Positions 297-14,266 of a stretch of DNA of 16,616 nucleotides are shown here, in pieces (within the stretch, counting starts at the first letter, position 1; every line of letters begins with the position of its first letter). This DNA comes from Massilia sp. Lineage in GTDB: Bacteria; Pseudomonadota; Gammaproteobacteria; Burkholderiales; Burkholderiaceae_D. A program made the position numbers and the translations under genes. The stretch lies in contig JBDSTZ010000252.1 in the NCBI GenBank assembly GCA_039927975.1, positions 1 through 16,616 on the forward strand, read 5' to 3'. The notes under the pieces are model-generated. The model ran no database searches. It saw only the letters and a list, made by a program, of their open reading frames with translations, and was not told where the DNA came from.

Positions 297-1766
297 ATGC
301 CGTTCATGATTTTGACGCGCGAAGGTTTCGACGATATCGTCGCGCGCGTGGAGCCGGCCGGTGCGGTCTTTTTGCTCAATCCGGTCATTGCGTCGGAGGC
401 CGAGATTGCGCGCCTGCGCGAGGCCGGCGGTACGGTCCATGTGCTTGATCCGGCGGCGCCGCCATCGCTGGCGGACGGCGCGCTCGATGCCGCTGGTATC
501 GGAGCCGAACCGGTGTGGGTCGAGCGTGCGACGGCCGGTTCGCGCCAGTCCGCTCTGGCCCTTGCTGCACCGGGCGCCGAACCCGAGGCCAGGCGTGCGC
601 CGCGTGCGCTGCGGCGGATCGGCAGGAGTGCCGGGGCGTTCGCCGGCGCCGCGTGGCGTGGTCTGCGTGCGGCCGGCGGGCCCCGGCGCCTGATGCTGCT
701 GCCCTACCTCGGTTTCGGTAACGCCGGCAAGCTCTGGCTCAAGGGCCGGGTGCTCGACGAACCGGCGTTTCGCGCCCAGACCGATCAGGACAGCCGCTGG
801 CGCAATATGCTCGCCTTGTACCAGCGGCTCGAATCCAACCAGGTGGCCGGCGCCCGCGTCCGCGCCAGCTTTGGCGGACAAACCTGGGACGCCGTCACCG
901 ATCGCGGCGGTTATTTTTCGTTCGAGATCGCGCCCGCGCAAGCGCTGGAAGGCGGCTGGCACGCAGTCGATCTCACCTTGCCGGACGCGCCCGACGCGAA
1001 CGGAGCCCCGCTTCACGCGAGCGCCCAGGTAATGGTGCCGGCGCCGAGCGCGCGCTTCGGCATCATCAGCGATATCGACGACACGGTGCTGTGGTCGAAC
1101 GCCACCAACAAGCTGAATATGGCGCTGATGCTGGCTCGCTCCAACCCATACACGCGGCAACCGTTCAAGGGCGTGGCGGCATTCTACCGGGCGCTCAAGG
1201 CGGGCGTCGGCGGCGAGGAAGACAACCCGGTGTTCTATGTGTCGAGCAGCCCGTGGCATCTGTTCGACCCGCTGCTCGAATTTCTGCGGCTGCGCGACAT
1301 TCCGGTCGGGCCCCTGCTGCTGCGCGAACTGGGCGTGCGCGAACTGCTGGCGTTGTCGAACCACCACCATCACAAGCTCGAGAAGATCGAGACGATCCTG
1401 CGCTTCTATCCCGGCATGCAGTTCGTGCTGATCGGCGACAGCGGCGAGCAGGACCCGGAAATCTATGCCGAGGTGGTGCGCCGCCATCCGCAGGCGGTGC
1501 GGGTGATTTATATCCGCAACGTGAACCCCGACCCTTCGCGTATCGACGCGCTTGATCGCCTGATCGAACAGGTCAGCGCCACCGGCACCCAGCTGATTCT
1601 GGCGCCCGACAGCGAGTTTGCGGCGGCCCACGCGGCGGCCGAAAAGCTGATCCAGGTCGATTGGCTGGCGGCGGTACGGCGCAATAAGAAAGAGGACGAG
1701 CGGAAGGAGGACGAGCGCAAGGAGGTCGTGCGGAAGGACGACGAGCGGCCGGCGCCGGCCACCTGA
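297..1766 (+). CDS. App1-like phosphatidate phosphatase family protein (DUF2183/App1 catalytic domain, HAD-like DxDxT), with a low-complexity KEDER-repeat C-terminal tail
   Basis: An ATG at 297 is preceded by ggagaggaaa as an RBS. The protein contains GIISDIDDTVLWSN, a HAD-type DxDxT nucleophile motif as in yeast App1 VISDIDDT, and LLPYLGFGNAGKLWLKGRVLDE, which is typical of bacterial App1 homologues. The ORF is 489 aa with strong GC3 codon bias. The 538-aa ORF on the opposite strand (258..1874) has no recognisable motifs. Confidence 0.8.
   Translation: MPFMILTREGFDDIVARVEPAGAVFLLNPVIASEAEIARLREAGGTVHVLDPAAPPSLADGALDAAGIGAEPVWVERATAGSRQSALALAAPGAEPEARRAPRALRRIGRSAGAFAGAAWRGLRAAGGPRRLMLLPYLGFGNAGKLWLKGRVLDEPAFRAQTDQDSRWRNMLALYQRLESNQVAGARVRASFGGQTWDAVTDRGGYFSFEIAPAQALEGGWHAVDLTLPDAPDANGAPLHASAQVMVPAPSARFGIISDIDDTVLWSNATNKLNMALMLARSNPYTRQPFKGVAAFYRALKAGVGGEEDNPVFYVSSSPWHLFDPLLEFLRLRDIPVGPLLLRELGVRELLALSNHHHHKLEKIETILRFYPGMQFVLIGDSGEQDPEIYAEVVRRHPQAVRVIYIRNVNPDPSRIDALDRLIEQVSATGTQLILAPDSEFAAAHAAAEKLIQVDWLAAVRRNKKEDERKEDERKEVVRKDDERPAPAT
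1690..1749 (+). repeat. In-frame 15-nt tandem repeat (aaggaggacgagcg[c/g], about 4 units) encoding the KEDER-KEDER-KEVVR-KDDER tail of the App1-like protein
   Basis: The tandem units are read directly at 1687-1749, giving the K/E/D/R-rich low-complexity C-terminus. Confidence 0.7.
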
Positions 1767-1892
1767 GCTTATCGGCGGCCAGCGTCGGCGCACTGGTATC
1801 ACAATATCAAGCCGGTATATGCGGCCCTGTTCGGGGCTTTGAAACGCGCGCGAAACCGCATACTGGTTGATCATCCACGCGCACAGCCCATC

Positions 1893-2720
1893 ATGAACTA
1901 CGGTTATCCCACGGTTGGCCCGCAGATCGCGTCAGCCACCAGCACGAGCGGCACCGGCAGCACCGGCAGCACCGGCAGCAGCACGCCCTTGTCGGCCGAC
2001 GTCGCGGCGCGCGTGAAGCAGACGCTCGCCGCACAGTCGACCGGCATCAACAAGCTCAATGACAGCCTGCTGCGCAACCAGACCAGGCTATCGGGCCTGG
2101 GCAAGCTGCAAAGCGCGCTGGCCGAGATGCAGGCCAGCGCCCAGAGCCTGTCGAGCGCGGCCACCGGCGCGAACGGCGTCGCGCCAAGCCAGGACGCCAG
2201 CCAGATCGGCAAGAACGTCCGCGCCTTCGTGGCCGCGTTCAATGCCATGAACGGCAAATTGCAAGCCTTGCAGGCGGGCGAACTCAAGTCCGATGCCGGC
2301 ATGAGCCGCGCGAGCGCCGAACTGGCGCAGCTGACTGGACTTGGCGGCGATGGCTTTTCGGCGCGCTCGCTGAGCGCGGCCGGCATCACGGTCGAGCGCA
2401 ATGGCAACTTGAAGATCGACGAGAAGGCCCTGACAGCGGCGCTGGCGAATGGTCCGTCCGCCGTCGGCGCGGTGTTTTCAAATGGCGGCAAGGGCCTGGC
2501 CGATGTGCTGGCCGACAGGCTGGCAAAACTGTCGAGCAAGGACGGCATGATCGGCAAGGAGTCGGCCAGCGCCAACAAGGAATTGAGCAGCGTGACGGCC
2601 CAGCGCACGGCGCTGGCCAAGGCGTTGACGGCGCAGGCGACCGCACTGGCGGCGATCTATTCGCGGCAGTCCGATGCACAGACCGGCAAGCCAAGCTCGC
2701 TGTTCGACATGCTGGCGTAA
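1893..2720 (+). CDS. Short FliD-family protein (flagellar filament cap / hook-associated protein 2-like) that has the N- and C-terminal FliD domains but no central head domains
   Basis: QTLAAQSTGINKLNDSLLRNQTRLSGLGKLQSALAEMQASAQSL aligns without gaps to the FliD_N consensus (..LqqkkstlqakiSAyGtLkSALstlQtalkaL). IGKNVRAFVAAFNAMNGKL matches the FliD linker pattern. LSAAGITVERNGNLKIDEKALTAALANGPSAVGAVFS matches FliD_C (ADIGITTDRNGKLSVDEAKLDKALKENPEAVKALFT). The protein is about 275 aa from the ATG at 1893; the track uses an in-frame TTG at 1839 as an alternative start. There is a Ser/Thr/Gly tract near the N-terminus (SATSTSGTGSTGSTGSST). GC3 bias is on the + strand, and the antisense ORF 1904..2620 is rejected. 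Confidence 0.6.
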   Translation: MNYGYPTVGPQIASATSTSGTGSTGSTGSSTPLSADVAARVKQTLAAQSTGINKLNDSLLRNQTRLSGLGKLQSALAEMQASAQSLSSAATGANGVAPSQDASQIGKNVRAFVAAFNAMNGKLQALQAGELKSDAGMSRASAELAQLTGLGGDGFSARSLSAAGITVERNGNLKIDEKALTAALANGPSAVGAVFSNGGKGLADVLADRLAKLSSKDGMIGKESASANKELSSVTAQRTALAKALTAQATALAAIYSRQSDAQTGKPSSLFDMLA

Positions 2721-2834: not shown

Positions 2835-2910
<76 letters not shown>

Positions 2911-2925
2911 CAATGAAGAGGCAAG

Positions 2926-2955
2926 ATTATAGTACTGATCTTGCGCCGCCGTCAA
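2926..2955 (-). promoter_or_regulatory. Sigma70-type promoter of tRNA-Ala
   Basis: The minus strand reads TTGACG (-35, rc of 2950-2955), an 18-nt spacer, then TATAAT (-10, rc of 2926-2931). The -10 lies about 15 nt upstream of the tRNA 5' end. Confidence 0.5.
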
Positions 2956-3097
2956 TGCCAAATTGGCGCGGCCCGAGATTGGCGACGCGCGTGCCCGGCG
3001 CCGGCGTCGGGCCGAAGGCGGAGACAGGCAGACAGATTGCGTTTCACTCGGCCCCGCTTTTGATCGCAGGCCCAGCGGCCGGTCCAGCGCGTTGCCG

Positions 3098-3976
3098 CTA
3101 TTGGGCCCGGTCCAAACGCCGTGGCCGCTCGATCACCTCGCGGCAGGCCGCGGCGATGTCCGCTCCCCATTCGGCCAGCAGCGGCCCGGTCGGCACCAGC
3201 CGATCGTCGACTTCCAGCATGCCGATCCAGGCCCGCACCCGCACAGGCGCCAGCGCACCGAAGCACTGCTGGGCGACGACGTCCCTGCCGTTTTCCGGCC
3301 CACCCAAACGCTTGCCTGCACAGGAACCAGATTCCGGATGCAGCGGCGCGAAACCCGTTCCCTGGTTTCGCGAGTTGCCGCTCGTTTCATAGAACACGCT
3401 GATGGCGGGGGTGTAGCGCGTGAGCGTGTCCGGCAGCACCAAGGCGACGTCCCTGACCGCCGCTTCGTAGATATTCCCGGCATCGCCTTCCCACTCGATT
3501 TGCTGGCGCTGGCCGGCCGGGCCGCGGAAGCTCAGTGCCAGGCCGGCGGCGGACAGGTCGAGCGCGTCGCGATCGACCGTGAAGCGCGCTTCGAGCGGGT
3601 AGACTGGCCGGTAGTCGGGCGCGCGGCGATAGCGCAGGCTGTAGGTGATGCCTGGCGTGAAACCGCCGGCAAGTTCAAGGCGGAACAGGCGCGCGCCTCG
3701 CGGCAGGTCATTCGCCACCGGCCCTGGCCGCGCGACTTCCAGCGGCGTCACGATCAGTGCCGGCGCGAGCGCCAGTCCGGACGCGCTCACCTCGAAATCG
3801 GCAGGGTTGAGCCCCAGCGACTCGGGCACCATGAACAGCACGCCTCTCAGGTTGGACGGATACCGCTGCGCGCTGGCGTGCGGGAATCCGATCGTGGTGC
3901 TCGCGATGCACTGTGCCTGAGCGACGCCGTGCACGATTGCGGCGATGGCGAACATGACGATGCGAAGATGTTGCAT
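3098..3976 (-). CDS. Secreted protein of unknown function (Sec signal peptide), 292 aa
   Basis: An ATG at 3976 and a TAG stop at 3098-3100 bound the ORF. The N-terminus MQHLRIVMFAIAAIVHGVAQA-QC has a signal-peptide n/h/c structure. GC3 codon bias is on the minus strand. The overlapping + ORF 2963..4066 is Arg/Ala-rich with no motifs. No domain is recognisable by eye. Confidence 0.65.
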   Translation of the reverse strand: MQHLRIVMFAIAAIVHGVAQAQCIASTTIGFPHASAQRYPSNLRGVLFMVPESLGLNPADFEVSASGLALAPALIVTPLEVARPGPVANDLPRGARLFRLELAGGFTPGITYSLRYRRAPDYRPVYPLEARFTVDRDALDLSAAGLALSFRGPAGQRQQIEWEGDAGNIYEAAVRDVALVLPDTLTRYTPAISVFYETSGNSRNQGTGFAPLHPESGSCAGKRLGGPENGRDVVAQQCFGALAPVRVRAWIGMLEVDDRLVPTGPLLAEWGADIAAACREVIERPRRLDRAQ

Positions 3977-4064
3977 GGGGCGCCGGGAGGTTGTGAAGGA
4001 AATGCAAGCTTAACATGCGGCGTGCCACCCGGAACCATGGGCGCCAACGCCGCGAGCCACACGT

Positions 4065-4100
4065 AAAAAAGCCATCTGGCCCGGTGGGACCAGATGGCTT
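4065..4100 (-). terminator. Rho-independent terminator of the TonB-dependent receptor gene
   Basis: A perfect 11-bp stem aagccatctgg pairs with ccagatggctt (4069-4079 / 4090-4100) around a 10-nt loop. On the minus strand it is followed by six T (rc of A4065-4070). It lies 20 nt downstream of the TAA stop at 4121-4123. Confidence 0.8.
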
Positions 4101-4120: not shown

Positions 4121-7081
4121 TTACTGGCCGAAGCGGTAACGCAGGTTCAGCCCGAAGTTACGGCCGTTACGATAGTGCTGCAACTCGAGGCCGGTCTCGT
4201 AATTGCCACCTGGTTCGCCGATGTAGCGGTTAGGCGCCTTGTCGAGAATGTTCGAGGCGTTCAGCGAGAGGGTCAGGTCCTTGGTGATGTTGTAGTTGAC
4301 CGAGCCGTCCAGGATACCGTAGGCGCCCATGTAGCGGCCCAAGATCGGTTGGGCGTCGAGCGCGAACACGGCGGCCGAACGCCAGGTGTAGACCAGGCGG
4401 GCGGAGAACTTCTGGTCTTCATACATGCCGCTGAAGCTGGCGCTGTTTTTCGACTGGAAGGGCTGCCACAGCTTGACGATGTTCGGTGCCGCCGCGGTGC
4501 CGTAGTTGACCGGATTCTCGGTCGTGACGTAGGTGTACGAACCGGACACGCCGAAGTTCTTCAGCCAGCTCAGCGAGTTGTCGAAGAAGTACTGGCCCGA
4601 CAGTTCGACGCCGCGTGCGAAACCTTTTTCCGCGTTGACGCGCTTGCTGACGCGATACTGGCCGTTCGTGCAGCTGTTCGACACTTGTCCATTGCCCGGC
4701 ACGTAAGCCGGCGCATTGTCGAGCGTGACGCATTCGCTGACATCGCTGAAGAAGCCCTTGATGGATTTGTTGAACACCGCCGCCGCGACATAGTTCGTCT
4801 TGTTGAAGTAGTGTTCAAGCGACAGGTCGAGGTTGTCCGACACCAGCGGCTTCAATTCCGGATTGCCGCGGCTACCGGTGCCGTCGACCGGATTGTAGTT
4901 GACGAACGGGTTCAGGTCGCCCAGCGCCGCGCGGGTCATGCCCCGGCCATAGCCGAAGCGCAGCAGGGTTTCCTTGCTGATATCGTAGGTCGCGTTGAAC
5001 GATGGCAGGGTGTTGCTGTACTCGGTGGTGCGCGCATTGTCGATCAGGCCGTTGACGCTGTTGATCTTGGTGATGGCCGTGCCGTTGGTGCGCACATAGC
5101 GCACACCGACTGCGCCGCGCAGGTGCTCGTCGAGGGCGGCGAATTCACCGACCACGTAGATGGCCTTGGTTTTCTCGTCGACGTAGCGGCGGTCCTGGAT
5201 GCGCTCGAGCAGCGCGCTTTCCATCTGGATGCCGGCCAGCGGGAATTGCGAACGGACCTGGTCGCCGAGCAGCAGATCCGGCGAGTACACCACGTAACCA
5301 CCCGAATAACCGGTGGTGCCGCCCATGAAGTTGGTCGGCGACGACTGGGTCACGCCATAGGTGCTGGCGAGGATGCCGTTGCTGCGGTCGGCTGCCAGCC
5401 CTTTGCCGTCGGTGGTCAACGGACGGTTGTTGTAGCTCCAGTTCTGCGACAAGTCGTCCTGCTTGGCAAGGCGGGTGCCGAACTTGATGCGCTTGAACAG
5501 GCCGTCCTCGATCGAATAGACGCCGGACAAGGCGAGCGCTTTGGCGCTGTCTTTGGAGGCCGAATTGTTACCGTTGTTAAATTCGCGGAACACGAAGTTG
5601 CTCGGGTCCGACAGACTCGGGCCGCTGAAATTGAGGGTGTGCGGCGAGCCATCGGCGACGCGCGAGGTGGTCCACGACAGGCCGTTCTTGGAGTCGAGGA
5701 AAACCGTGCGGTTGTCGGTGCGCTTGGTCGCTTTCAGGAAGGCGTAATCGGCTTTCAGGGCCAGGCTCGGAGTCGGGTTCCAGTCGCTGCCAAACGCCAC
5801 GTTCCAGGTCGAGTACGGGGTATGTTCGTCCACCGACACGGTGTTCACGGTCGAGTTGAGGAAGTCACCGCTCAGGGCACGCTTGGTAGCGAGCACGTCG
5901 TTGGCGCCGCCGCTGACGTTGCGTGCCGACATACCCTTGTCGAAGGTGAACGGCGAGGTTTGCAGGTTCGCCACGTTGACGCCGTCGTTCGAATTGAGGG
6001 CGCGGTAGTTCTGGTGGTACAGGTAGTAGGTGTAGTTGCTTTCGACGTAGAAGCGCAGGGTGTTGTCGACGCGGTAGTCGGCGGCGCCACTGAAGCCCTT
6101 GCGCTCGCGCATGATGGTTTCCTGCGACACGTTGGTGTTCAACGTGGTCGTGACCATGATGTTGTCGATCTGCGCTTGGGTCAGGCCGGTGTTGTCGGGT
6201 GTGTTCGGGCCGATGCTGCCGGCCGTGTTACGGATCGGCACGTTGATCAGGGCATTGATGTCGCTGCGGCCGACAAACTGCGCCTGGGCCTGGAACGGCG
6301 AGTTGGTGGTGTTGGCGGCGGCCAGGGTCGCGTACTCGGCGCTGTCGGCGCGCACCGCGCGTTTCAGGGCCGGGCCGCGGTTGCCCGGGTTGTTATCCGA
6401 GCGGTTGGTGCTGTTCTGCAATTGGCCGGCCAGGGTGTAGCCGAAGCGGCTGCCGCCGCCGAGGTCAATGCGGTTGGCAATGAGTCCGAACACATCCGGC
6501 TCGGTCTGCTTGGCCAGGTCGTTGTAGCGGGCGCCGGCGGAGATCGCGCCGGTCAGGCCCAGCTTGAAATCGCTCGGGTTGCGGGTGCGCACGTTGACCA
6601 GGCCGCCGATGCCGCCTTCGATGTGCTCGGCCGATGGATTCTTGTAGACGTCGACGCCGGCGATCATGCCGGGAATCGCGCTTTCGATGTTGTATTCGCG
6701 GTTGCCGGCGGAGAAGAACGCACGGCCGTTCACCAGCGAGGCGGTTTGGCCGGACAGGCCGCGGATGGTCAGGCCCGAACCGTTGCCGACTGGCGCCGCG
6801 CCTTCGCCGCCGTAGCGGTAGCCCTGCACGCCTGGAATCCGGGTCAGCGTTTCGGCGACGTTCGGATCGGGCAGCTTGCCGATGTCTTCGGCGGTGATCG
6901 AGTCGACCACTTCCATCGCGTCGCGCTTGATGGCGACCGACGAACGGGCGCTGGCCTTCATGCCGGTGACGACGACGGTTGGCGTGACCGCGTCGTCTGC
7001 CGCTACATGGGCGGCAAAGGCTTGCGACACCGCGAGTGCGATGGCGGACACTTTGAGTGTTCTTTGGAAATGCTTGTTCAT
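4121..7081 (-). CDS. TonB-dependent outer-membrane receptor of the large (986 aa) type typical of oligosaccharide uptake
   Basis: The signal peptide is MNKHFQRTLKVSAIALAVSQAFA-AHV. A TonB-box-like TPTVVVTG is present. Plug-domain motifs include DSITAEDIGKLPDPNVAETLTRIPGV and LTIRGLSG. The long beta-barrel ends ...LNLRYRFGQ with a terminal aromatic-x-x motif. The RBS aggggat lies 8 nt upstream of the ATG at 7081. Confidence 0.95.
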   Translation of the reverse strand: MNKHFQRTLKVSAIALAVSQAFAAHVAADDAVTPTVVVTGMKASARSSVAIKRDAMEVVDSITAEDIGKLPDPNVAETLTRIPGVQGYRYGGEGAAPVGNGSGLTIRGLSGQTASLVNGRAFFSAGNREYNIESAIPGMIAGVDVYKNPSAEHIEGGIGGLVNVRTRNPSDFKLGLTGAISAGARYNDLAKQTEPDVFGLIANRIDLGGGSRFGYTLAGQLQNSTNRSDNNPGNRGPALKRAVRADSAEYATLAAANTTNSPFQAQAQFVGRSDINALINVPIRNTAGSIGPNTPDNTGLTQAQIDNIMVTTTLNTNVSQETIMRERKGFSGAADYRVDNTLRFYVESNYTYYLYHQNYRALNSNDGVNVANLQTSPFTFDKGMSARNVSGGANDVLATKRALSGDFLNSTVNTVSVDEHTPYSTWNVAFGSDWNPTPSLALKADYAFLKATKRTDNRTVFLDSKNGLSWTTSRVADGSPHTLNFSGPSLSDPSNFVFREFNNGNNSASKDSAKALALSGVYSIEDGLFKRIKFGTRLAKQDDLSQNWSYNNRPLTTDGKGLAADRSNGILASTYGVTQSSPTNFMGGTTGYSGGYVVYSPDLLLGDQVRSQFPLAGIQMESALLERIQDRRYVDEKTKAIYVVGEFAALDEHLRGAVGVRYVRTNGTAITKINSVNGLIDNARTTEYSNTLPSFNATYDISKETLLRFGYGRGMTRAALGDLNPFVNYNPVDGTGSRGNPELKPLVSDNLDLSLEHYFNKTNYVAAAVFNKSIKGFFSDVSECVTLDNAPAYVPGNGQVSNSCTNGQYRVSKRVNAEKGFARGVELSGQYFFDNSLSWLKNFGVSGSYTYVTTENPVNYGTAAAPNIVKLWQPFQSKNSASFSGMYEDQKFSARLVYTWRSAAVFALDAQPILGRYMGAYGILDGSVNYNITKDLTLSLNASNILDKAPNRYIGEPGGNYETGLELQHYRNGRNFGLNLRYRFGQ

Positions 7082-7153
7082 ACTTTTTTATCCCCTGCTT
7101 TTGGTGGTTTTTTTTGGGTAAATCATTTGCTATCGGCTTCACGCGCTGCGGCG

Positions 7154-7169
7154 GGATATCGATAACAAA
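7154..7169. promoter_or_regulatory. Candidate operator ggATATCGATAACAAA upstream of the TBDR gene (copy 1 of a motif shared across the locus)
   Basis: The motif sits 73-88 nt upstream of the TBDR ATG, immediately downstream (minus-strand sense) of a TATGAT -10-like hexamer. Its 8-bp palindromic core TATCGATA is identical to the copies at 11298-11336 and 13794-13809. Confidence 0.45.
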
Positions 7170-7301
7170 CCGGAGCGATCATACGAGAATTTCTTTTGAT
7201 AATGAATACTTTTTTGACTTGTTGCGTATGTACAACGCTCAAGCGCCCCTCCCTCCTTTCTTGATGCGCGATACGCGCGACATGGCTCAACGGCGGCGCA
7301 T

Positions 7302-7375
7302 GTCGCGCGTGTCGTTCGTGGTCGCGCGTGTCGTTCGTGTCGCGCATGTCGTTCGTGTCGCGCATGTCGCGCAAG
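7302..7375. repeat. Tandem direct repeat with a 19-nt unit gtcgcgcgtgtcgttcgtg, two perfect and about two degenerate copies, in the PEP-CTERM/TBDR intergenic region
   Basis: Units are at 7302-7320 and 7321-7339 (both perfect), 7340-7357 (18 nt, G to A change), then a decaying copy. There are no interspersed unique spacers, so this is not a CRISPR array. It creates the artefactual MSFVSRMSFVSR peptide of track ORF 7328..8104. Confidence 0.75.
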
Positions 7376-7492
7376 TCGCATATGTCGTCCACATCGTCCG
7401 CATCGCGCGGCAACGCGGCAACACTAGCCCCGCCGACAGGGCGAGCGCCCCGTCGGCCGATCAAACATCGCGTGGAAAAATGCCTCGGTGGC

Positions 7493-8083
7493 TCAGCCCT
7501 GGCGGCGGCGCAGCGCGGCGAACATGGCGCAGCCGGCCACCAGCATCAGCAGGAACGGCGCCGGTTCCGGCACCTGGTTCACTTGCGTGAGCGCGTTGGT
7601 GACGAAGCTCAGTTGCTGGCCGATCGGCGCACCCGGCTGGACGAAAATGCTGCCGAGGTCGCCGTTGGCGCCCAGATAGCTGGTGTCGTTGAACAAGGCC
7701 CAGCTGAACGCGCTGCCGTCGCCGCTGCCGGCCACGAAGCTGACATCGAAGATGAAGTGGCCGCCCAGCGTGATCGCCTGTACCAGGTCGCCACCGCCGC
7801 CGGGGCTGCTGAACACGACTGTGCCTGGCAGCGCGCCACTGACCGAACCGCTGGTGTTCTCGGCGCCCACCAGCGCGCCGGTCAGGCCGCTGAGGGAGGC
7901 GCTGCTGCCAGTGTCGGACAACACCAGGAAATTGAAACCGAGGTAAGCGCTGCCGCTACCCAGGGTCGAGGTGTCGATGTCGACGTGGAAGTACGGCACG
8001 GCGGTCGCGCCGGCGCCGCCGGCCGAGGCGCACAGCGCGAGCGCCAGCGCCAGGCGTGCGAAGATATTTTTGTAGTGATGCAT
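7493..8083 (-). CDS. PEP-CTERM sorting-domain protein (putative exosortase substrate), about 196 aa, with a Gly/Ser-rich N-terminal domain of unknown function
   Basis: The C-terminus ...VNQVPEPAPFLLMLVAGCAMFAALRRRQG* is a canonical PEP-CTERM (VPEP, TM helix, Arg cluster). The signal peptide is MHHYKNIFARLALALALCASAGGAGA. A strong RBS AAGGAGA lies 6 nt upstream of the ATG at 8083. The track start at 8131 is rejected because it overlaps the upstream gene and has no RBS. The start is 10 nt downstream of the lyase A stop, so the two genes are in one operon. Confidence 0.85.
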   Translation of the reverse strand: MHHYKNIFARLALALALCASAGGAGATAVPYFHVDIDTSTLGSGSAYLGFNFLVLSDTGSSASLSGLTGALVGAENTSGSVSGALPGTVVFSSPGGGGDLVQAITLGGHFIFDVSFVAGSGDGSAFSWALFNDTSYLGANGDLGSIFVQPGAPIGQQLSFVTNALTQVNQVPEPAPFLLMLVAGCAMFAALRRRQG

Positions 8084-8093
8084 GGTGGTCTCC

Positions 8094-11000
8094 TTAATAT
8101 TTAACGCTGATGAATTTCGACGTGTACCCAATGGCCGCCTTGTTCGGATTCGAGAAGGTGGTCGTCAAGGTCACGGTCTGTCCAGGCGCCAGATCGGCCG
8201 CCGGCAGCGTGATGTACGGCGCGCCGTCATGCGTGCCGGTGGCGTTGTCGAGCGTGACGCCGGCGGTAAGGCCGTCGAGCCGGAATTGCAGCGGGCCGTA
8301 CAGCGTGGCGTCGCTGGTGTTGGTGATGCTGACGGTGCCGGTGTACTTGAGCGTGAAGCGGTTCATCGTCAGGCCCGAGCGCATGATCTTCGCGCTGGCG
8401 CCCAGGTCGACCGGGGTCAGCAAGTCGTAGCGGGTGCCGAAGAAGCGCAGTTCGCCGTACGACGAAATGCCGGGGAAGGCGGGATCGGTCGGCACGCCCG
8501 GATGGTCGACGCGCATCATGAAGTAGCGGTAGCGCTGCTTCTCCAGGCCTGGCACCACGGGGATGACTTCCATCTCGAAATTGCGCTCGGTGGTGTCGCT
8601 CGTTTCACGGCTCGACAGCAAGGTCCAGCTGGCGTTGTCGTTCGAGCCGTAGATGTTCAAGCCCTGCGAGCGGTTGGCGAACATGAAGCGCGCCTGCACG
8701 CCGATGGCGCCGAGCGACATCCGGTAGTCGGCGCCGAGATCGAGGTAGGCCGGCGCGCGCAGGTCGCCCGAGTAGCTGTTGTAGTCGCCGTCGACCAGCA
8801 GCGCGGCGCGGTTGCGGTCGAAATTGGTGGTGCCGGCGATGAAGTTCTTGCTCCAGTCCAGGCTGCCGTCGGCGACCACGAGCGGATTGAGCAGTTCCAG
8901 TTTGGCGGTCACGCCCTGCACTTGCTTGAGCAGGGCCGGGAAGTCGGCGTCGCTGGTGCTGTCGATGGCCGCCTGCAGCGGCGCCATGCTGGACTTGAAG
9001 GCGGCCAGCGACGGCGTGGTGTACACCTTCTCGGCGCTGTAGCCGTCCTGGGCGACCTGGAAGGCGGTGGCGCGGTCCGGTTGCACACTCAGGCGCGCCG
9101 TCATGGTGTTGATCGAGACGCCATCGGTGACGCTGATGACGATATTGTGCACGCCGACCTGGTCGGCGCCGGGGGTCCAGTTGAACTGGCCGCTGGCGCT
9201 GTCGAGGCTGGCGCCGGCCGGCAGGCTGATGCCCTCGTAGACCGGGGTGTCGGCGGCATTCGCGTCGGTCGCCTTGTAGTTGCCCGTGTACGGCACGCCC
9301 TGCACCACCAGCTCGGTGACGGGGAACGCCGGCGAGGCGAAGAACGGCACCGTCAGCTGGGTCGGCGCGGCCATGTTGACGAAGTCGACGTCCACCGTGC
9401 TGCCTTCGGCGCCGCTGAACTTGAAGACGATCAGGTTGGCGCCGAGCCACTTGCCGGCGGTCGCCGCGTTCGACGAGTCGGGCACGATGTAGCGCCACTG
9501 GCCGTGCGTGTTGGGCACCGTGATGTCGGCCCACGGACTGGCGTTCTGCTCGGCGCTGGCGCTCATTTTCATGACCGCGTTGGTGCGCACCATCATGCCC
9601 ACCGGGGCGAACTTGGCGCGGTCCGCATAGCCGACGTCGTGGAAGGCGATGGTGGCGCCGGCCGGCTTGACGTCGGCGTGGCCATAGGTGCGTCCCGCTT
9701 CGGTCTGGGTGGTCCAGGCGCCCGCGATGAAACTGCTCTTGCGTTCGGTCTGCAGCAAGCCCTGGTCGTTCGGCAGCGCCACGCCGGTCAGCGCGGTCGG
9801 GATGGTCAGGAAGGCTTGCGAGCCCATGTCCTTGTTGTTCGGCGTGGCGTTGCCCCAGAAAATGGCCGGGCCGTTCGAGTGGGCCGCCGCCGCCGCGAGG
9901 TAGGGCGCGGTCGCTTCGACGTCGACGCCTTCCTGGTACTTGTACATATTGTAGATTTCGGCGATCGCGTCGACTTCGTAGAGCCGGCCGCGGTACGCGC
10001 TCGACGGATAGGAGGTGCCGCCATTGGTGTCGGCCCACGGGATCTCGTAGCCGAGCATGTACTGGGCGTAGGCGTTGGCACCCTTTAGCAGGCGGTTGCC
10101 GCCGAACTGATAGACGCTGACCGCGTCGCCCAGGGTCGAGGGCTTGCCGCTGAAGGGATCGACCTTGGTGCCTTGCGCGTTGACCAGGCGGAACAGGCCG
10201 GACAGGATGTCGACGTTGTCGCCGCCGTGGGCTTGGTCGCGGGCCATTTCCTGGATCTGGTAGAACGGCACGCCGAACTTGTTGTACGGGTTGTTCACGT
10301 CGATGAAGGGAATCAGCGGCAGCACGGCGCCGTTGATGTTCTGGCGGGTCGAGGTGGCGTTGACCGTCATCCATTCGACGGTTTCATCGTAGCGCGCGCG
10401 GTTGTCGGTGAAGATCGCGCCCGCCATGCGTCCGACCAGCGAGTAATTGTGCTGGTTCATGAAGCGCTCGTTGCTCGAAAACAGCACGCGCTCGAGCGGG
10501 TCGATCAGGTTGTCCTTGAGCTTCTGGGTGTCGGTATCGGTCCAGGCGAGCGGATAGGAGGTGTAGCTCGGATCGGCGTAGGAGTAGCGCATGATCTCGG
10601 CCGCCTGCAGCATGCGCGAGAGCGGCACGCCGTTGTGGATGTGGGCGTCGGGGAAATACGCTGCGCCGGCCGGATTCATATTGCTCCAGGTGCGCAGGAT
10701 GCGCATGGCGTTGCGGCGATAGTCGTTATTGCCCGTCACGTAGTACAGGATGGCCTGGGTCAGCGCGCCTTGCGAATCGTTGATCAGGCGGGTCTGGGCC
10801 GTATTGTTGTTGAAGTTAGGGGTGTTCGGGGTGTCGACCTTGGTCGAGTCGCGGTTGGTCGGCTGCAGGTTGATGTTGGCGTAGTTGCAGCAGGCGGTGG
10901 CCAGCGCGTCGTAGTAACTCTTGTACGGCTCGACGTCGGCGCGCACCTGCTGACGCATGTAGTCGAGCTGCTCCATCGTGAAGCCGAGCGCCGGATGCTT

Positions 11001-11177
11001 GAAGCCGTTCGGGCTGACGACCGGCTGCGAGGCCGGGGTGGAGATGAAACCGAGCGCTTGAGCGGGCGCCGTTGCCAGCGCCCACAGGGCCGCGGCGACC
11101 GACACTGCCGTGACGCAGGCCTTGAGCGTGCCGCGTGCGGGACGCGCGATGCTGCCATTTTCATAACGATTGTGCAT
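8094..11177 (-). CDS. Secreted multidomain polysaccharide-lyase-like protein (about 1027 aa). Domains are an alginate-lyase/heparinase-type (alpha/alpha)-toroid with a beta-sandwich, a He_PIG-type Ig-like domain, an F5/8 type C (discoidin, CBM32-like) domain and a C-terminal beta-domain.
   Basis: The signal peptide is MHNRYENGSIARPARGTLKACVTAVSVAAALWALATAPAQA-LG. The ATG at 11177 with AAGGA 5 nt upstream is preferred over 11192, which has no RBS. The toroid region is paralogous to the next gene, sharing HP(A/G)L..T...(D)(F/Y)MR..V, AAEIMRY, a Q-HN motif and a RDQ(A/G)H motif. LPAGASLDSASGQFNWTPGADQVGVHNIVISVTDG matches the putative-Ig (He_PIG) pattern. ALLVDGDYNSYSGDLRAPAYLDLGADYRMSLGAIGV..IYGSNDNASWTLL matches F5/8 type C. 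The exact lyase family is unresolved. Confidence 0.75.
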   Translation of the reverse strand: MHNRYENGSIARPARGTLKACVTAVSVAAALWALATAPAQALGFISTPASQPVVSPNGFKHPALGFTMEQLDYMRQQVRADVEPYKSYYDALATACCNYANINLQPTNRDSTKVDTPNTPNFNNNTAQTRLINDSQGALTQAILYYVTGNNDYRRNAMRILRTWSNMNPAGAAYFPDAHIHNGVPLSRMLQAAEIMRYSYADPSYTSYPLAWTDTDTQKLKDNLIDPLERVLFSSNERFMNQHNYSLVGRMAGAIFTDNRARYDETVEWMTVNATSTRQNINGAVLPLIPFIDVNNPYNKFGVPFYQIQEMARDQAHGGDNVDILSGLFRLVNAQGTKVDPFSGKPSTLGDAVSVYQFGGNRLLKGANAYAQYMLGYEIPWADTNGGTSYPSSAYRGRLYEVDAIAEIYNMYKYQEGVDVEATAPYLAAAAAHSNGPAIFWGNATPNNKDMGSQAFLTIPTALTGVALPNDQGLLQTERKSSFIAGAWTTQTEAGRTYGHADVKPAGATIAFHDVGYADRAKFAPVGMMVRTNAVMKMSASAEQNASPWADITVPNTHGQWRYIVPDSSNAATAGKWLGANLIVFKFSGAEGSTVDVDFVNMAAPTQLTVPFFASPAFPVTELVVQGVPYTGNYKATDANAADTPVYEGISLPAGASLDSASGQFNWTPGADQVGVHNIVISVTDGVSINTMTARLSVQPDRATAFQVAQDGYSAEKVYTTPSLAAFKSSMAPLQAAIDSTSDADFPALLKQVQGVTAKLELLNPLVVADGSLDWSKNFIAGTTNFDRNRAALLVDGDYNSYSGDLRAPAYLDLGADYRMSLGAIGVQARFMFANRSQGLNIYGSNDNASWTLLSSRETSDTTERNFEMEVIPVVPGLEKQRYRYFMMRVDHPGVPTDPAFPGISSYGELRFFGTRYDLLTPVDLGASAKIMRSGLTMNRFTLKYTGTVSITNTSDATLYGPLQFRLDGLTAGVTLDNATGTHDGAPYITLPAADLAPGQTVTLTTTFSNPNKAAIGYTSKFISVKY

Positions 11178-11297
11178 GATTGTCCTTATCATTTTTTAAA
11201 TGACCAGGCGATCCAGGGGTCGCGTAGTTCTCCTCCAATGGTATGTTTTCGATACCACAAACGATGCTAGCATGATTTATTGTTATTTCAGTTAAGC

Positions 11298-11344
11298 TTT
11301 TTGTTATCGATATCCTCATTTTTGTTATCGATATCCAATGTCAA
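11298..11344 (-). promoter_or_regulatory. Promoter/operator region of lyase A. Two perfect 18-nt direct repeats tttttgttatcgatatcc at 21-bp spacing lie downstream of a consensus -35 TTGACA.
   Basis: Copies are at 11298-11315 and 11319-11336, separated by tca. Each contains the palindrome TATCGATA. On the minus strand the perfect TTGACA (rc of 11339-11344) is followed by operator 1 and then operator 2, placing the operators over the spacer/-10/+1 region. This is an AT-rich island in GC-rich DNA, 121-159 nt upstream of the ATG. Confidence 0.5.
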
Positions 11345-11468
11345 TACGCGACTCCCTATGATCACCTCGGCAAGTAGGGGGAAAGTGCCACTGCGCGGCG
11401 CGGACGCGGCTGTGCTCTCAAGTGCAACATTAGGCGAAAAAGCAACAGAATCCGGCGCACGGGCACGC

Positions 11469-11491
11469 AAAAAGGGGCGCCGAAGCGCCCC
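11469..11491 (-). terminator. Rho-independent terminator of lyase B
   Basis: The stem ggggcgc pairs with gcgcccc around a cgaa loop (11474-11491). It is preceded on the + strand by AAAAA (11469-11473), which gives a U-tract on the minus strand, and lies 44 nt downstream of the TAA stop at 11535-11537. Confidence 0.6.
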
Positions 11492-11534
11492 ACCCTTGCA
11501 GCAAAAACCGAATGGCACCCGGGGCGCCGCCCGC

Positions 11535-13703: not shown

Positions 13704-13793
13704 TCGGTCTCCTCTTCAGTTGAAAGCCCGCGTGCCCGGCGAGATTGTCGAGCATGAACGGGGGTGCTTGAAGCAGGCAGATTATGCGCGGTA

Positions 13794-13809
13794 TTTTATC
13801 GATAACACG
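13794..13809. promoter_or_regulatory. Candidate operator ttTTATCGATAACAcg (perfect 10-bp palindrome TTATCGATAA) upstream of lyase B, adjacent to a CATAAT -10-like hexamer
   Basis: The site lies 91-106 nt upstream of the lyase B ATG on the minus strand. On the minus strand the order is TGTTATCGATAAAA, then taccgcg, then CATAAT. It is the same motif as at 7154-7169 and 11298-11336. Confidence 0.45.
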
Positions 13810-13901
13810 ATTGCTCACCTATGGTTTTTTTCACGGGAAGTCGGGCTGTGTTTACGTGTTTTGGTATGCCTTCAGCGTGTTTGGACGGAAGTTCACGCAG
13901 G

Positions 13902-13977
13902 ATGCATTTGAGATGCATTCGGCATGCAATCACTATGCAATCAGCATGCAATCAGCGTTCAATCAGCGGGTAATCGT
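13902..13977. repeat. Array of 7 heptads ATGCA(A/T)T (decaying to gttcaat and gggtaat) at exact 11-bp spacing, with a core unit ATGCAATCAGC
   Basis: Heptad starts are at 13902, 13913, 13924, 13935, 13946, 13957 and 13968. The array lies in the divergent intergenic region between lyase B (-) and the flotillin-like gene (+). It creates a spurious N-terminal extension of track ORF 13784..16222. Confidence 0.8.
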
Positions 13978-14266
13978 GATGCGGTGGATATGTACTCGGT
14001 CGGCGAACCGCAACGTGCGCAATGGCCCGGACCGGTCCGGCGCTGCGCAGGGAGCACAGGATGCGGCATCAGGACGCCCGACGTTTACGGATTGTTTACG
14101 CCATCCGGCAATGTCTTTACGACATTTTTATCGCCGGGCCGATACGCTGATTGCATGGCCGAACCCTCTGTTGTCCCGCCGCCCGCGCAGCGCGCCGGCC
14201 GACACCGAGGCGCCCACTTTGTCGACCGCCGTGTTCGCCGCGCGTCGACTGTATCGAAGGAACGCT

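What the first reader, a model, noticed from the sequence alone, without database searches (positions are those of the whole stretch)
1839..2720. Orphan minimal FliD-like protein outside any flagellar operon
The protein keeps the FliD N-terminal and C-terminal coiled-coil/cap-leg regions with good motif-level matches, but it is only about 275 aa and lacks the central head domains. It carries an STG-rich N-terminal tract. It sits between a phosphatase gene and a tRNA, with no flagellar genes nearby. It might be a FliD paralogue acting as a cap or regulator for another filament, an anti-FliD decoy, or a degenerate remnant.
Basis: partly seen in the sequence, partly recalled or inferred. Interest (0 to 1): 0.5.

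Follow-up and report, generated by a model that had tools for sequence, protein, structure and literature searches.

The report
Headless stand-alone FliD-like gene
This Massilia gene encodes a real, selectively maintained relative of the flagellar cap protein FliD that keeps only the "leg" part; it belongs to an undescribed stand-alone FliD-like family of soil Oxalobacteraceae that has lost its "head" several separate times, and its function is unknown.

Summary
Window 1893-2720 (+) encodes a 275-aa protein with a significant FliD_C match and a sub-threshold FliD_N match. Its predicted fold matches solved FliD structures. No flagellar gene lies on the 16.6-kb contig.

It is not a one-off remnant. 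It belongs to a distinct FliD-like subfamily (about 108 proteins, 70 species genomes) confined to Massilia, Duganella, Rugamonas, Pseudoduganella and Janthinobacterium. No member lies within 10 kb of a flagellar gene. Most members are about 455 aa with D2-D3 head domains. They usually sit at radA-pilZ-fliD-like, just downstream of a 106-aa PilZ protein that keeps c-di-GMP-binding motifs.

The window protein is a headless derivative. A bootstrapped tree shows at least three independent head losses. An independent assembly has the same architecture and synteny, with dN/dS 0.28. A conserved 40-nt upstream element travels with the gene.

The family lacks the canonical FliD terminal motifs and ends in an invariant tethered SLFDMLA.

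Canonical Oxalobacteraceae FliD (Herminiimonas) is 673 aa, in fliC-flaG-fliD-fliS-fliT. Janthinobacterium is annotated with three FliDs, one stand-alone. Whether the protein caps a filament or acts inside the cell is unresolved.

Verdict: new variant of a known kind, moderate interest.

The parts
1827..1866 (+). Conserved promoter-like upstream element CTGTTCGGGGCTTTGAAACGCGCGCGAAACCGCATACTGG. TTGAAA is at 1839-1844 and CATACT at 1859-1864, with a 14-nt spacer. The element begins 66 nt before the ATG.
   Evidence: PWM iteration finds the same 40-nt element far above shuffled controls in 47 of 74 family loci. It usually begins at -65 or -66, including in L081 and the long sister L018, whatever the upstream gene is. 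It is not a sigma-28 consensus (best 8 of 12). The 14-nt spacing is short for sigma-70. The simple sigma-70 scan did not call it.
1893..2720 (+). CDS of the headless FliD-like protein (275 aa plus stop).
   Evidence: It is 100% identical to an NCBI MAG protein named 'flagellar filament capping protein FliD [Massilia sp.]' on a 16616-bp contig. GC3 is 0.87.
1893..1991 (+). Disordered, S/T/G/A-rich N-terminal region (residues 1-33) with no hydrophobic signal peptide.
   Evidence: AF2 pLDDT is below 50 for residues 1-15 and 19-31. The region varies in length and sequence across the family.
1940..1980 (+). 9-bp tandem repeat (CAGCACCGG, 4.6 copies) that encodes the TSGTGSTGSTGS tract.
   Evidence: TRF score 61. 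The tract is absent from the sister gene in L081, which is 11 aa shorter here.
1995..2162 (+). Long N-terminal helix (residues 35-90), comprising the D0 N-helix and the first D1 helix. It contains the family core LSGLGKLQSALAEMQ, the equivalent of canonical LSAYGxLKSALSxFQ.
   Evidence: AF2 helix H35-90. FliD_N profile positions 4-61. Invariant residues L59, L66, S67, L69 and G70.
2163..2195 (+). Eleven-residue linker (residues 91-101, ATGANGVAPSQ) at the point where relatives carry the D2-D3 head of about 190 aa.
   Evidence: Alignments A1 and A2. Junction comparison. pLDDT dips to 59 here. The long sister P0003 aligns colinearly with Salmonella FliD and with the isolated D2-D3 crystal constructs 5H5T, 5H5W and 5XLJ.
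2175..2654 (+). FliD_C-matching region (residues 95-254). It is the remainder of D1, including the small beta-hairpin at residues 165-175, and the start of the C-terminal helix.
   Evidence: Pfam PF07195, 64.8 bits. Foldseek match to 5H5V D1 at rmsd 2.8 A.
2547..2684 (+). C-terminal long helix (residues 219-264) with the family-specific KALTAQATALAAIYSRQ in place of the canonical RYxxQFxxLD...LTQQL.
   Evidence: AF2 helix H219-264. Comparison with Herminiimonas FliD. Nearly invariant residues L245, T246, Q248, L252 and Y256.
2697..2720 (+). Extreme C-terminal motif SLFDMLA and the stop codon, tethered by a short G/S/T/P-type linker.
   Evidence: F271 and D272 are nearly invariant. The motif SLFD(M/F)(L/I)(A/V) ends every family member, after a linker of variable length. 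It also ends the divergent second type in Pseudoduganella lurida.
297..1766 (+). Context only: upstream APP1-type phosphatidate-phosphatase-domain gene.
   Evidence: Pfam APP1_cat, 163.6 bits. The same neighbour, 84% identical, is in L081. No functional link is inferred.
2835..2910 (-). Context only: downstream, convergent tRNA-Ala(GGC).
   Evidence: ARAGORN. Rfam tRNA, 62.9 bits. Its 3' end is also present downstream of the gene in L081.

Best explanation
**Identity (shown, about 0.9 confidence).** The gene encodes a functional, naturally 'headless' member of a stand-alone FliD-like subfamily. The subfamily is restricted to the Massilia, Duganella, Rugamonas, Pseudoduganella and Janthinobacterium group of Oxalobacteraceae. 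The window protein arose from an ancestor of about 457 aa. The D2-D3 head of about 190 aa was cleanly deleted and replaced by an 11-residue linker. What remains is the D0 coiled-coil 'leg' plus the D1 domain. The gene carries its own conserved upstream element and has moved away from the ancestral radA-pilZ-fliD-like locus.

**Mechanism (inferred, about 0.35).**
- The protein has no Sec signal peptide and has a disordered N-terminus, as late flagellar export substrates do.
- It retains the D0-D1 module, which is sufficient for cap function in Pseudomonas.
- I therefore propose that it is exported by the flagellar type III apparatus.
- It would then bind through its legs to the distal end of a flagellar axial structure as an accessory or modulatory cap alongside the canonical FliD.
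- It would not be the cell's primary cap.
- In most relatives its production or delivery would be coupled to c-di-GMP through the adjacent PilZ protein.
- The head is dispensable for this role, which would explain why it has been lost repeatedly.
For: **Homology and fold.**
- Pfam FliD_C, 64.8 bits.
- Family profile against PDB FliD, E 5e-15, with one gap at D2-D3.
- Foldseek top 19 hits are all FliD.

**Head deletion.**
- Alignments.
- The long sister aligns with D2-D3 crystal constructs.
- Pfam profile ends are missing.

**A distinct family.**
- About 108 proteins score at least 155 bits, and the next hit scores 90 bits.
- 70 species genomes carry it, all Oxalobacteraceae, with one locus per genome.

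**Stand-alone.**
- No flagellar gene lies within 10 kb of any locus.

**Functional.**
- dN/dS is 0.28 against L081, and 0.18-0.37 for most short pairs. Long pairs give 0.10-0.31.
- Synteny with L081 is conserved.
- The upstream element is conserved.

**Independent head losses.**
- WINDOW+L081 is sister to a long-form clade with 96% bootstrap.
- The Rugamonas short clade has 100% and the Massilia short clade 90%.
- Linker sequences are clade-specific.

**D0-D1 is sufficient for capping.**
- P. aeruginosa FliD lacking D2 and D3 still builds functional flagella (PMC8533109).

**Paralogy.**
- Canonical 673-aa FliD sits in fliC-flaG-fliD-fliS-fliT in Herminiimonas.
- Janthinobacterium SLB01 is annotated with three FliDs: two in flagellar clusters and one isolated.

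**PilZ link.**
- pilZ lies on the same strand, 23-220 nt upstream, in most of the 70 genomes.
- RxxxR and DxSxxG-like motifs are conserved.
- Pfam PilZ, 38.6 bits.
Against: **Diverged termini.** In Pseudomonas the terminal coiled coil is the part that determines compatibility with the filament (PMC8533109). Those termini are the most diverged part here. GxGSGLD is absent. The C-terminal helix is replaced and ends in a tethered SLFDMLA.

**No flagellar regulatory or chaperone signals.**
- No fliS- or fliT-like chaperone gene is adjacent.
- The upstream element is not a sigma-28 promoter.

**Slow evolution of the stand-alone copy.** In Janthinobacterium the stand-alone FliD is 94-100% conserved between strains. 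The cluster-encoded FliDs and flagellins drop to 46-76%. That is not what an exposed tip protein is expected to show.

**Weak links in the chain.**
- PilZ is not next to the gene in this window.
- It was not shown that the Janthinobacterium stand-alone gene belongs to this subfamily.
- It was not shown that this MAG, or any Massilia genome, has a canonical fliD.
- Export, oligomerisation and localisation are untested.
Confidence: 0.45

Rival explanations
1. Intracellular regulator or decoy. The protein is never assembled on a filament. It acts in the cytoplasm through its coiled-coil legs and the tethered C-terminal SLFDMLA peptide. It might bind the PilZ protein, a flagellar chaperone or the export gate, and so tune flagellar assembly or gene expression in response to c-di-GMP.
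For: - The pilZ - fliD-like gene pair is conserved across most of the 70 genomes. The gap is sometimes only 23-37 nt, which suggests an operon.
- PilZ keeps its c-di-GMP-binding motifs.
- An invariant terminal heptapeptide sits after a variable flexible linker, which looks like a docking motif.
- The extracellular head is dispensable.
- The upstream element is not sigma-28 type.
- The stand-alone FliD of Janthinobacterium evolves much more slowly than the cluster-encoded FliDs and flagellins.
Against: - The C-terminus has no similarity to the canonical FliD C-terminal helix. From established knowledge of Salmonella, that helix is what FliT binds. Simple titration of FliT is therefore not supported.
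- The whole D0-D1 fold, including the most conserved FliD core motifs, is retained, as expected for an assembling protein.
- The PilZ linkage has been lost in this window and in the other relocated copies.
- No interaction has been tested.
Confidence: 0.27
2. A repurposed structural protein unrelated to the flagellum. The FliD D0-D1 scaffold would have been co-opted for another function, for example capping or anchoring a different surface polymer.
For: - The gene was never found within 10 kb of flagellar genes.
- The terminal motifs are diverged.
- A second, more divergent stand-alone type in Pseudoduganella lurida lies beside giant Big_1 / CarboxypepD_reg / CLIPPER surface proteins.
- In this window the gene lies near a polysaccharide-lyase, TonB-receptor and PEP-CTERM cluster.
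Against: - No recurrent non-flagellar partner other than PilZ was found. Contexts of relocated copies are unrelated housekeeping genes.
- The family occurs in a clade described as motile and flagellated.
- There is no Sec, Tat or lipoprotein signal for an alternative export route (read directly from the sequence).
Confidence: 0.15
3. It is simply this organism's only, unusually short, flagellar cap. That is a canonical FliD function encoded away from the flagellar cluster.
For: - NCBI's pipeline names it FliD.
- D0-D1 alone can cap filaments in Pseudomonas.
- Only one family locus was found per genome.
- I could not retrieve a canonical fliD from any Massilia, Duganella or Rugamonas genome with the tools available.
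Against: - The canonical FliD of the same bacterial family is 673 aa. It carries the GxGSGLD and RYxxQF...LTQQL termini and sits in fliC-flaG-fliD-fliS-fliT.
- Janthinobacterium, a genus that carries the subfamily, has two cluster-encoded FliDs in addition to a stand-alone one.
- The subfamily is separated from all canonical FliDs by a large score gap.
- It lacks the terminal motifs that determine filament compatibility.
Confidence: 0.1
4. A decaying remnant of a fliD duplicate, with no function.
For: - A large internal deletion.
- A sub-threshold FliD_N score.
- A slippage-prone 9-bp repeat in the N-terminus.
Against: - The reading frame is intact and GC3 is 0.87.
- dN/dS is 0.28 at dS 0.57 against L081.
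- All family-invariant residues are retained.
- The upstream element is conserved.
- The same architecture is maintained in several independent clades.
Confidence: 0.03

Closest known systems
Canonical flagellar filament cap FliD / HAP2 (Salmonella and E. coli FliD, PDB 5H5V, 9GNZ, 9M6H; Herminiimonas sp. KBW02 FliD, P0378)
   Same: - Homologous D1 domain and terminal helices.
- Pfam FliD_C is significant.
- The core motifs LSxxGxLxSAL..FQ, FVxA(F/Y)N and GIxxDxxGxLxLD are conserved.
- There is no Sec signal peptide and the N-terminus is disordered.
   Different: - No D2-D3 head.
- No GxGSGLD N-terminal motif.
- The C-terminal helix RYxxQFxxLD...LTQQL is replaced by KALTAQATALAA-YxxQ, then a flexible linker, then SLFDMLA.
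- It is not in a fliC-fliD-fliS-fliT cluster.
- It has no sigma-28-type promoter.
- It scores 41 bits against NCBIfam FliD equivalog models whose cut-offs are 375 or more.
Engineered P. aeruginosa FliD lacking D2 and D3 (Nedeljkovic et al. 2021, PMC8533109)
   Same: The same domain content (D0 plus D1, with the head replaced by a short linker). The engineered protein still builds functional flagella.
   Different: - The engineered protein keeps the native terminal coiled coil and its native regulation.
- The window protein is a natural product of evolution.
- It lies in a paralogous lineage with different termini and unknown function.
Long (442-476 aa) members of the same stand-alone subfamily (for example Massilia sp. 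NR 4-1 P0199, Duganella sp. BJB488 P0021, MAG protein P0003)
   Same: - 57-59% identity to P0003-P0005 over D0-D1.
- The same N- and C-terminal family motifs.
- The same upstream element.
- The same stand-alone status.
   Different: - They retain a D2-D3 head.
- Most sit at radA-pilZ-fliD-like.
- The window gene is headless and sits between an APP1 phosphatase gene and tRNA-Ala.
Other stand-alone FliD paralogues (B. cenocepacia J2315 BCAS0104 'FliD2', PMC11054960; Janthinobacterium sp. SLB01 F3B38_RS20605, PMC8929069)
   Same: A FliD-annotated gene encoded away from the main flagellar cluster, in a genome that has a cluster-encoded FliD.
   Different: - BCAS0104 is full length (over 500 aa) and was detected on the cell surface.
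- Homology of either gene to this subfamily was not tested here.
- Neither paper analyses domain loss or PilZ linkage.

Membership tests
FliD / HAP2 superfamily (Pfam PF07195, PF02465) | FliD_C domain above Pfam's gathering score | tested here: met
   64.8 bits against a cut-off of 25.4, E 1e-17.
FliD / HAP2 superfamily (Pfam PF07195, PF02465) | FliD_N domain above Pfam's gathering score | tested here: not met
   22.9 bits against 24.8. Only profile positions 4-61 of 97 are present, because the rest belongs to the deleted head. Long relatives score 45-53 bits.
FliD / HAP2 superfamily (Pfam PF07195, PF02465) | D1 fold and long terminal helices as in solved FliD structures | tested here: met
   The AF2 model has pLDDT 76. 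The Foldseek top 19 PDB hits are all FliD. 5H5V aligns at rmsd 2.8 A over about 131 columns.
Canonical filament-cap FliD (functional orthologue) | D2-D3 head or plate domains | tested here: not met
   About 190 residues are replaced by an 11-residue linker. Pseudomonas experiments show the head is not essential.
Canonical filament-cap FliD (functional orthologue) | N-terminal GxGSGLD-x3-(I/L)V-x-QLM motif of the D0 helix | tested here: not met
   It is replaced by S-A-D-V-A-A-R-V-K-Q-T-L-A. Nearly all canonical-size representatives carry the motif.
Canonical filament-cap FliD (functional orthologue) | C-terminal D0 helix RYxxQFxxLD...L(T)QQL | tested here: not met
   Comparison with Herminiimonas FliD shows that the family has KALTAQATALAAIYSRQ, a linker and SLFDMLA instead.
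Canonical filament-cap FliD (functional orthologue) | Encoded with fliC, fliS and fliT in a flagellar cluster | tested here: not met
   None on the contig. None within 10 kb of any of about 80 family loci. The canonical arrangement is seen in Herminiimonas L080.
Canonical filament-cap FliD (functional orthologue) | Reaches an NCBIfam FliD equivalog cut-off | tested here: not met
   The best score is 41 bits against a cut-off of 375. This is a weak test, because the canonical Herminiimonas FliD also falls short (308 against 387).
Canonical filament-cap FliD (functional orthologue) | Exported by the flagellar type III system, forms a pentameric or hexameric cap, and is required for filament growth | not testable with these tools
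   This needs secretome analysis, localisation and a mutant phenotype.
Stand-alone Oxalobacteraceae FliD-like subfamily (defined in this report) | Scores with the subfamily profile above the gap that separates it from other FliDs | tested here: met
   337 bits. Members score at least 155 bits and the next protein scores 90 bits. The test is partly circular, because the window protein is in the profile. Single-sequence phmmer also returns only this family.
Stand-alone Oxalobacteraceae FliD-like subfamily (defined in this report) | Terminal SLFD(M/F)(L/I)(A/V) motif and LTAQAxALA helix | tested here: met
   Residues 245-253 and 269-275.
Stand-alone Oxalobacteraceae FliD-like subfamily (defined in this report) | Conserved 40-nt upstream element about 66 nt before the ATG | tested here: met
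   Window 1827-1866 scores 29.4. Shuffled sequences give a mean of -12.4 and a maximum of 15.7.
Stand-alone Oxalobacteraceae FliD-like subfamily (defined in this report) | Position radA - pilZ - fliD-like | tested here: not met
   There is no RadA, PilZ or SBP match in the window. Linkage is present in most of the 70 genomes and absent in the relocated copies.

The most novel reading that the evidence does not exclude
The family would be a previously unrecognised c-di-GMP-gated flagellar accessory.
- The small PilZ protein encoded just upstream in most genomes would act like a dedicated chaperone. It would hold or release the FliD-like protein through its tethered SLFDMLA tail, depending on c-di-GMP.
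- Once exported, the FliD-like protein would sit on the filament or junction tip as an 'anti-cap' or alternative cap. It would stop or remodel filament growth.
- That would be a post-translational switch between motile and sessile states, acting at the distal end of the flagellum.
- Headless versions such as the window protein would be streamlined forms of this plug.
Probability: 0.12. Interest if true: 0.8.

Novelty: new variant of a known kind. Interest (0 to 1): 0.42.

Why it matters
- **A natural replicate of a laboratory result.** The D0-D1 legs are the indispensable core of FliD-type proteins and the head is expendable. Here evolution removed the head at least three times, at the same structural boundaries.
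- **An annotation problem.** Genome pipelines label this sequence-distinct, stand-alone subfamily 'flagellar filament capping protein FliD'. The label probably overstates what is known. It may also inflate genome-based inference of flagellar completeness in Massilia, Duganella and Janthinobacterium, which are common soil, rhizosphere and freshwater bacteria.
- **A testable link.** The near-universal pairing with a PilZ c-di-GMP receptor points to a possible connection between c-di-GMP signalling and a FliD-like protein.
- **Limits.** None of this changes the current understanding of flagella unless the function proves unusual.

Tried and rejected
- **Sigma-28 (FliA) promoter.** I scanned 260 nt upstream of ten loci for TAAA-N14-16-GCCGATAA. 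The best matches were 8-9 of 12 and were not conserved in position. Rejected as a class III flagellar promoter.
- **Riboswitch or known RNA** upstream or downstream. Rfam at gathering and at E<=1 found only the tRNA.
- **Intrinsic terminator** after the stop codon. None was called. There is only a GC hairpin (GCGCGC-AGGT-GCGCGC, about 2730-2745) with no T-run.
- **Canonical fliD in carrier genomes.**
  - The profile search listed only family members, then Methylococcales-type 773-aa FliDs.
  - A search with the closest canonical-type representative, P0130, returned about 665-aa FliDs of Nitrosomonadales-like MAGs and Herminiimonas, but no Massilia, Duganella or Rugamonas entry among the 120 listed.
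  - So co-occurrence in one genome rests on the Janthinobacterium SLB01 tables.
- **Cluster look-ups for organism names.** These gave almost no names.
- **Alignment A2 for locus finding.** It was too diverse. A1 worked.
- **Foldseek against AFDB50.** The library was unavailable.
- **Literature search** for FliD-like, fliD2 and orphan fliD. It found no description of this family.
- **Pseudoduganella lurida P0126.** I first took it for a candidate canonical FliD. It is another stand-alone, more divergent type.
- **APP1 phosphatase or tRNA-Ala as functional partners.** Rejected. The pairing is shared only with the sister contig L081. In Massilia sp. DWR3-1-1 the APP1 gene lies about 6 kb away.
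Full report
**What is at the coordinates**

The listed ORF, 1839-2720 (+), starts at a TTG. The biological start is almost certainly ATG 1893, giving 275 aa.
- The nearest homologue begins with the same MNYG.
- A conserved upstream element occupies 1827-1866, inside the TTG extension.
- GC3 in this frame is 0.87, typical of coding sequence in this 65% G+C contig.

The window is identical in length to the only contig that carries this exact protein. That protein is an NCBI MAG entry named 'flagellar filament capping protein FliD [Massilia sp.]'.

**Is it FliD-like beyond chance?**

Yes.
- Pfam FliD_C scores 64.8 bits (E 1e-17, cut-off 25.4).
- FliD_N scores 22.9 bits, just below its 24.8 cut-off.
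- The FliD_N match stops at profile position 61 of 97, and the FliD_C match starts at position 42 of 236. Long relatives match both profiles end to end. The missing profile ends are therefore the flanks of a deleted internal block.
- A profile of the family hits solved FliD chains from Salmonella, E. coli, Pseudomonas and Campylobacter at E 5e-15 to 9e-10. Each alignment has a single gap of about 200 residues covering D2-D3.
- The AlphaFold2 model (pLDDT 76) is two long terminal helices, a helical D1 and a small hairpin. Residues 1-31 are disordered.
- The 19 best Foldseek hits in the PDB are all FliD. E. coli 5H5V aligns at 2.8 A over about 131 columns.
- The STG tract is encoded by a 9-bp tandem repeat of 4.6 copies at 1940-1980.

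**Surroundings**

- Upstream is an APP1-type phosphatase gene, 297-1766 (+).
- Downstream is a convergent tRNA-Ala(GGC), 2835-2910 (-). It has a near-consensus promoter on the minus strand at 2955..2926.
- Next comes a signal-peptide-bearing hypothetical gene, 3098-3976 (-).
- After that: a TonB-dependent receptor, a PEP-CTERM protein, two alginate-lyase-family proteins and an SPFH protein.
- No flagellar gene is present by Pfam. A tblastn with twelve Herminiimonas flagellar-cluster proteins also finds none, apart from FliD matching this gene itself.

**It is a family, and mostly a full-length one**

- Single-sequence search returned only 34 proteins, in two length classes: about 255-285 aa and about 453-464 aa.
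- The alignment shows that the short class equals the long class minus one clean internal block.
- The long sister P0003 aligns colinearly with Salmonella FliD. It also aligns with crystal constructs that contain only D2-D3 (5H5T, 5H5W, 5XLJ). The block is therefore the head.
- A profile search found about 108 proteins at 155 bits or more. Scores then drop to 90 bits.
- An exhaustive HMMER search of 1.84 billion representatives found 46 clusters at E<=1e-30 among 5509 FliD-like hits.
- A scan of one genome per species found 70 loci, one per genome. All are in Rugamonas, Massilia, Duganella, Pseudoduganella, Janthinobacterium, Telluria, Zemynaea or unnamed Oxalobacteraceae/Burkholderiaceae-labelled MAGs, apart from one record titled Burkholderia sp..
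- About 60 of these are long (442-476 aa) and about 10 are short.

**Always stand-alone, usually behind a PilZ gene**

- In nine loci with gene calls, no flagellar neighbour appears.
- A tblastn with Herminiimonas FliC, FlaG, FliS, FliT, FliK, FlhB, YcgR, FliE, FliF, FliG and FliH found nothing within 10 kb of any locus.
- In most of the 70 genomes the order is radA, then a 106-aa PilZ gene, then the FliD-like gene, often followed by an SBP_bac_1 gene.
- pilZ lies on the same strand, 23-220 nt upstream. In Duganella a 2.7-kb insertion separates the two genes.
- The PilZ orthologues keep QRxxxRK (RxxxR) and D-x-(S/G)-x-x-G. They match Pfam PilZ at 38.6 bits.
- The window gene, its sister L081, its long sister L018, the Massilia short clade and a few others are elsewhere, in unrelated housekeeping contexts.

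**The window gene is functional and its headless state is derived**

- L081 is an independent assembly of a related organism. It has APP1 (84% aa identity), the headless gene (78%) and tRNA-Ala in the same order.
- Nei-Gojobori dN/dS between the two is 0.28 (dN 0.16, dS 0.57).
- Other short pairs give 0.18-0.37, with one at 0.53. Long pairs give 0.10-0.31.
- I built a neighbour-joining tree on 242 shared D0-D1 columns with 100 bootstraps.
  - WINDOW+L081 is supported at 99%.
  - This pair is sister to a long-form clade (P0003-5, L018) at 96%.
  - The Rugamonas short clade (100%) is nested among long Rugamonas and Duganella forms.
  - The Massilia short clade is supported at 90%.
- That requires at least three independent head losses. 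Weaker support suggests one or two more.
- Headless forms also exist in the divergent second type.
- All deletions fall between SL(S/A)GxG and QDxxQIGKN, the points where D2 leaves and re-enters D1. The replacement linkers of 8-14 residues differ between clades.

**How it differs from canonical FliD**

- Canonical-size representatives start with GxGSGLD-x3-IV-x-QLM. The family has S-(A/T)-D-V-x3-V-x-QTL after a variable low-complexity leader.
- The canonical FliD of the same bacterial family (Herminiimonas sp. KBW02) is 673 aa. It lies in fliC-flaG-fliD-fliS-fliT-fliK-flhB'-ycgR-fliE-fliF and ends ...RYRKQFTALDTLVSSMQSTQNYLTQQL....
- The family instead has KALTAQATALAA(I/L)Y(S/T)QQ, then a G/S/T/P linker of variable length, then an invariant terminal SLFD(M/F)(L/I)(A/V). 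The more divergent stand-alone type of Pseudoduganella lurida also ends this way.
- NCBIfam FliD equivalogs are missed by a wide margin (41 bits against 375 or more). The canonical Herminiimonas protein also falls short, so this test is weak.

**Regulatory region**

- A 40-nt element lies at -65 or -66 from the ATG in 47 of 74 loci: CTGTTC-n3-G-n-TTT(G/A)A-n14-(T)G(C/G)ATA(C/A)T.
- It is present in the window (1827-1866), L081 and L018, whatever the upstream gene is.
- It looks like a promoter that moved with the gene.
- It is not a sigma-28 consensus, and the 14-nt spacing is short for sigma-70. I cannot assign a sigma factor.
- Where pilZ ends only 23-37 nt before the ATG the element is missing, which suggests co-transcription with pilZ.

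**Paralogue or sole cap?**

I could not read whole genomes, so this rests on three observations.
- The family is sharply separated from canonical FliDs, and none of its loci examined lies within 10 kb of a flagellar gene.
- A typical cluster-encoded FliD exists in Oxalobacteraceae.
- The published gene tables for Janthinobacterium sp. SLB01 list three FliD genes.
  - One is in the polar cluster (flagellin-flaG-fliD-fliS-fliT).
  - One is in a second cluster with lateral flagellins.
  - One is isolated (F3B38_RS20605).
  - The isolated gene is 94-100% identical between strains. The cluster-encoded FliDs and flagellins fall to 46-76%.
- Janthinobacterium genomes carry the subfamily. I did not show that RS20605 is the family member.
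- For this MAG the question cannot be answered from one contig.

**Mechanism**

Shown:
- The domain content (D0 plus D1).
- Absence of a Sec-type signal peptide.
- A disordered N-terminus.
- Purifying selection.
- Repeated head loss.
- PilZ linkage in relatives.

From the literature: in P. aeruginosa, FliD lacking D2 and D3 still supports functional flagella. D1 and the terminal coiled coil are essential, and they determine filament compatibility (PMC8533109).

Inferred: the protein acts through its legs. I rank the readings as follows.
- An exported accessory or alternative tip-binding protein, ancestrally coupled to c-di-GMP through PilZ. About 0.35 for the mechanism. The overall confidence of 0.45 given for the best explanation also covers identity, for which my confidence is about 0.9.
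- A cytoplasmic regulator or decoy that uses the tethered C-terminal peptide (0.27).
- A non-flagellar repurposing (0.15).
- The sole short cap (0.10).
- A dead remnant (0.03).

The diverged termini and the slow evolution of the Janthinobacterium stand-alone copy count against a conventional exposed cap. Retention of the complete D0-D1 fold counts against a purely regulatory role.

**Novelty**

- The superfamily is known, and the gene is already auto-annotated as FliD.
- I found no description of this subfamily, its PilZ pairing or its recurrent natural head loss in the searchable literature.
- Precedents exist for stand-alone FliD paralogues (B. cenocepacia FliD2) and for engineered headless FliD.
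- I therefore rate it a new variant of a known kind, of moderate interest.

Noticed in passing
L006:9556-9876 and the equivalent position in most of L010-L079: A 106-aa single-domain PilZ gene lies directly upstream of the FliD-like gene, between radA and it, in most of the 70 species genomes. The gap is sometimes only 23-37 nt. The RxxxR and DxSxxG-like motifs are conserved. The PilZ protein evolves fast (35-70% identity), while RadA next door stays near 90%.
   Followed up: partly
L004:10001-11353 (Pseudoduganella lurida) and proteins P0068, P0069, P0089: A second, more divergent stand-alone FliD-like type (450 aa) shares the terminal SLFDF-type motif. It lies beside giant Big_1 / CarboxypepD_reg / CLIPPER-domain proteins. 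The same genome also has a first-type member at radA-pilZ (L054). Headless versions (about 256-278 aa) of this second type also exist.
   Followed up: partly
window 4121-13703 (-): A probable polysaccharide-degradation and uptake cluster. It comprises a TonB-dependent receptor (4121-7081), a PEP-CTERM protein (7493-8131) and two large alginate-lyase-family proteins with He_PIG / F5_F8_type_C and Laminin_G_3 domains (8094-11192, 11535-13703).
   Followed up: partly
window 13784-16222 (+): An 812-aa protein whose only Pfam match is an SPFH/Band 7 domain at residues 441-655. The rest has no match.
   Followed up: no
window 3098-3976 (-) overlapping 2963-4066 (+): Two long overlapping ORFs with no Pfam hit. 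GC3 (0.81 against 0.71) and a signal-peptide-like N-terminus (MQHLRIVMFAIAAIVHGVAQAQC) favour the minus-strand ORF as a secreted protein of unknown function.
   Followed up: partly
window 2926-2955 (-): A near-consensus sigma-70 promoter (TTGACG-18-TATAAT, 11 of 12) just upstream of the tRNA-Ala(GGC) gene.
   Followed up: no
window 1650-1766 (+): The APP1-type phosphatase ends in a highly charged, repetitive tail (KKEDERKEDERKEVVRKDDERPAPAT), encoded by imperfect DNA repeats.
   Followed up: no
L003:9740-9900 (Duganella sp. BJB488) and similar in L042, L047, L049: Copies of a 25-30-nt element (GGGGTCAAGTCTGACATTCGGACACG) occur in direct and inverted orientation. They lie between the inserted citrate-synthase/CoA-transferase genes and the FliD-like gene, and look like a REP-type repeat.
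   Followed up: no
protein P0138 (266 aa): A short FliD-like protein with a canonical-type N-terminus (GFGSSLDVNEIVNQLM). It hints that headless FliDs may also exist outside this subfamily. The contig is only about 1 kb, so completeness and context are unknown.
   Followed up: no
Janthinobacterium sp. SLB01 tables in PMC8929069: The stand-alone FliD (F3B38_RS20605) is 94-100% identical between strains. The two cluster-encoded FliDs and the flagellins fall to 46-76%. This contrast fits different exposure or selective pressure.
   Followed up: partly
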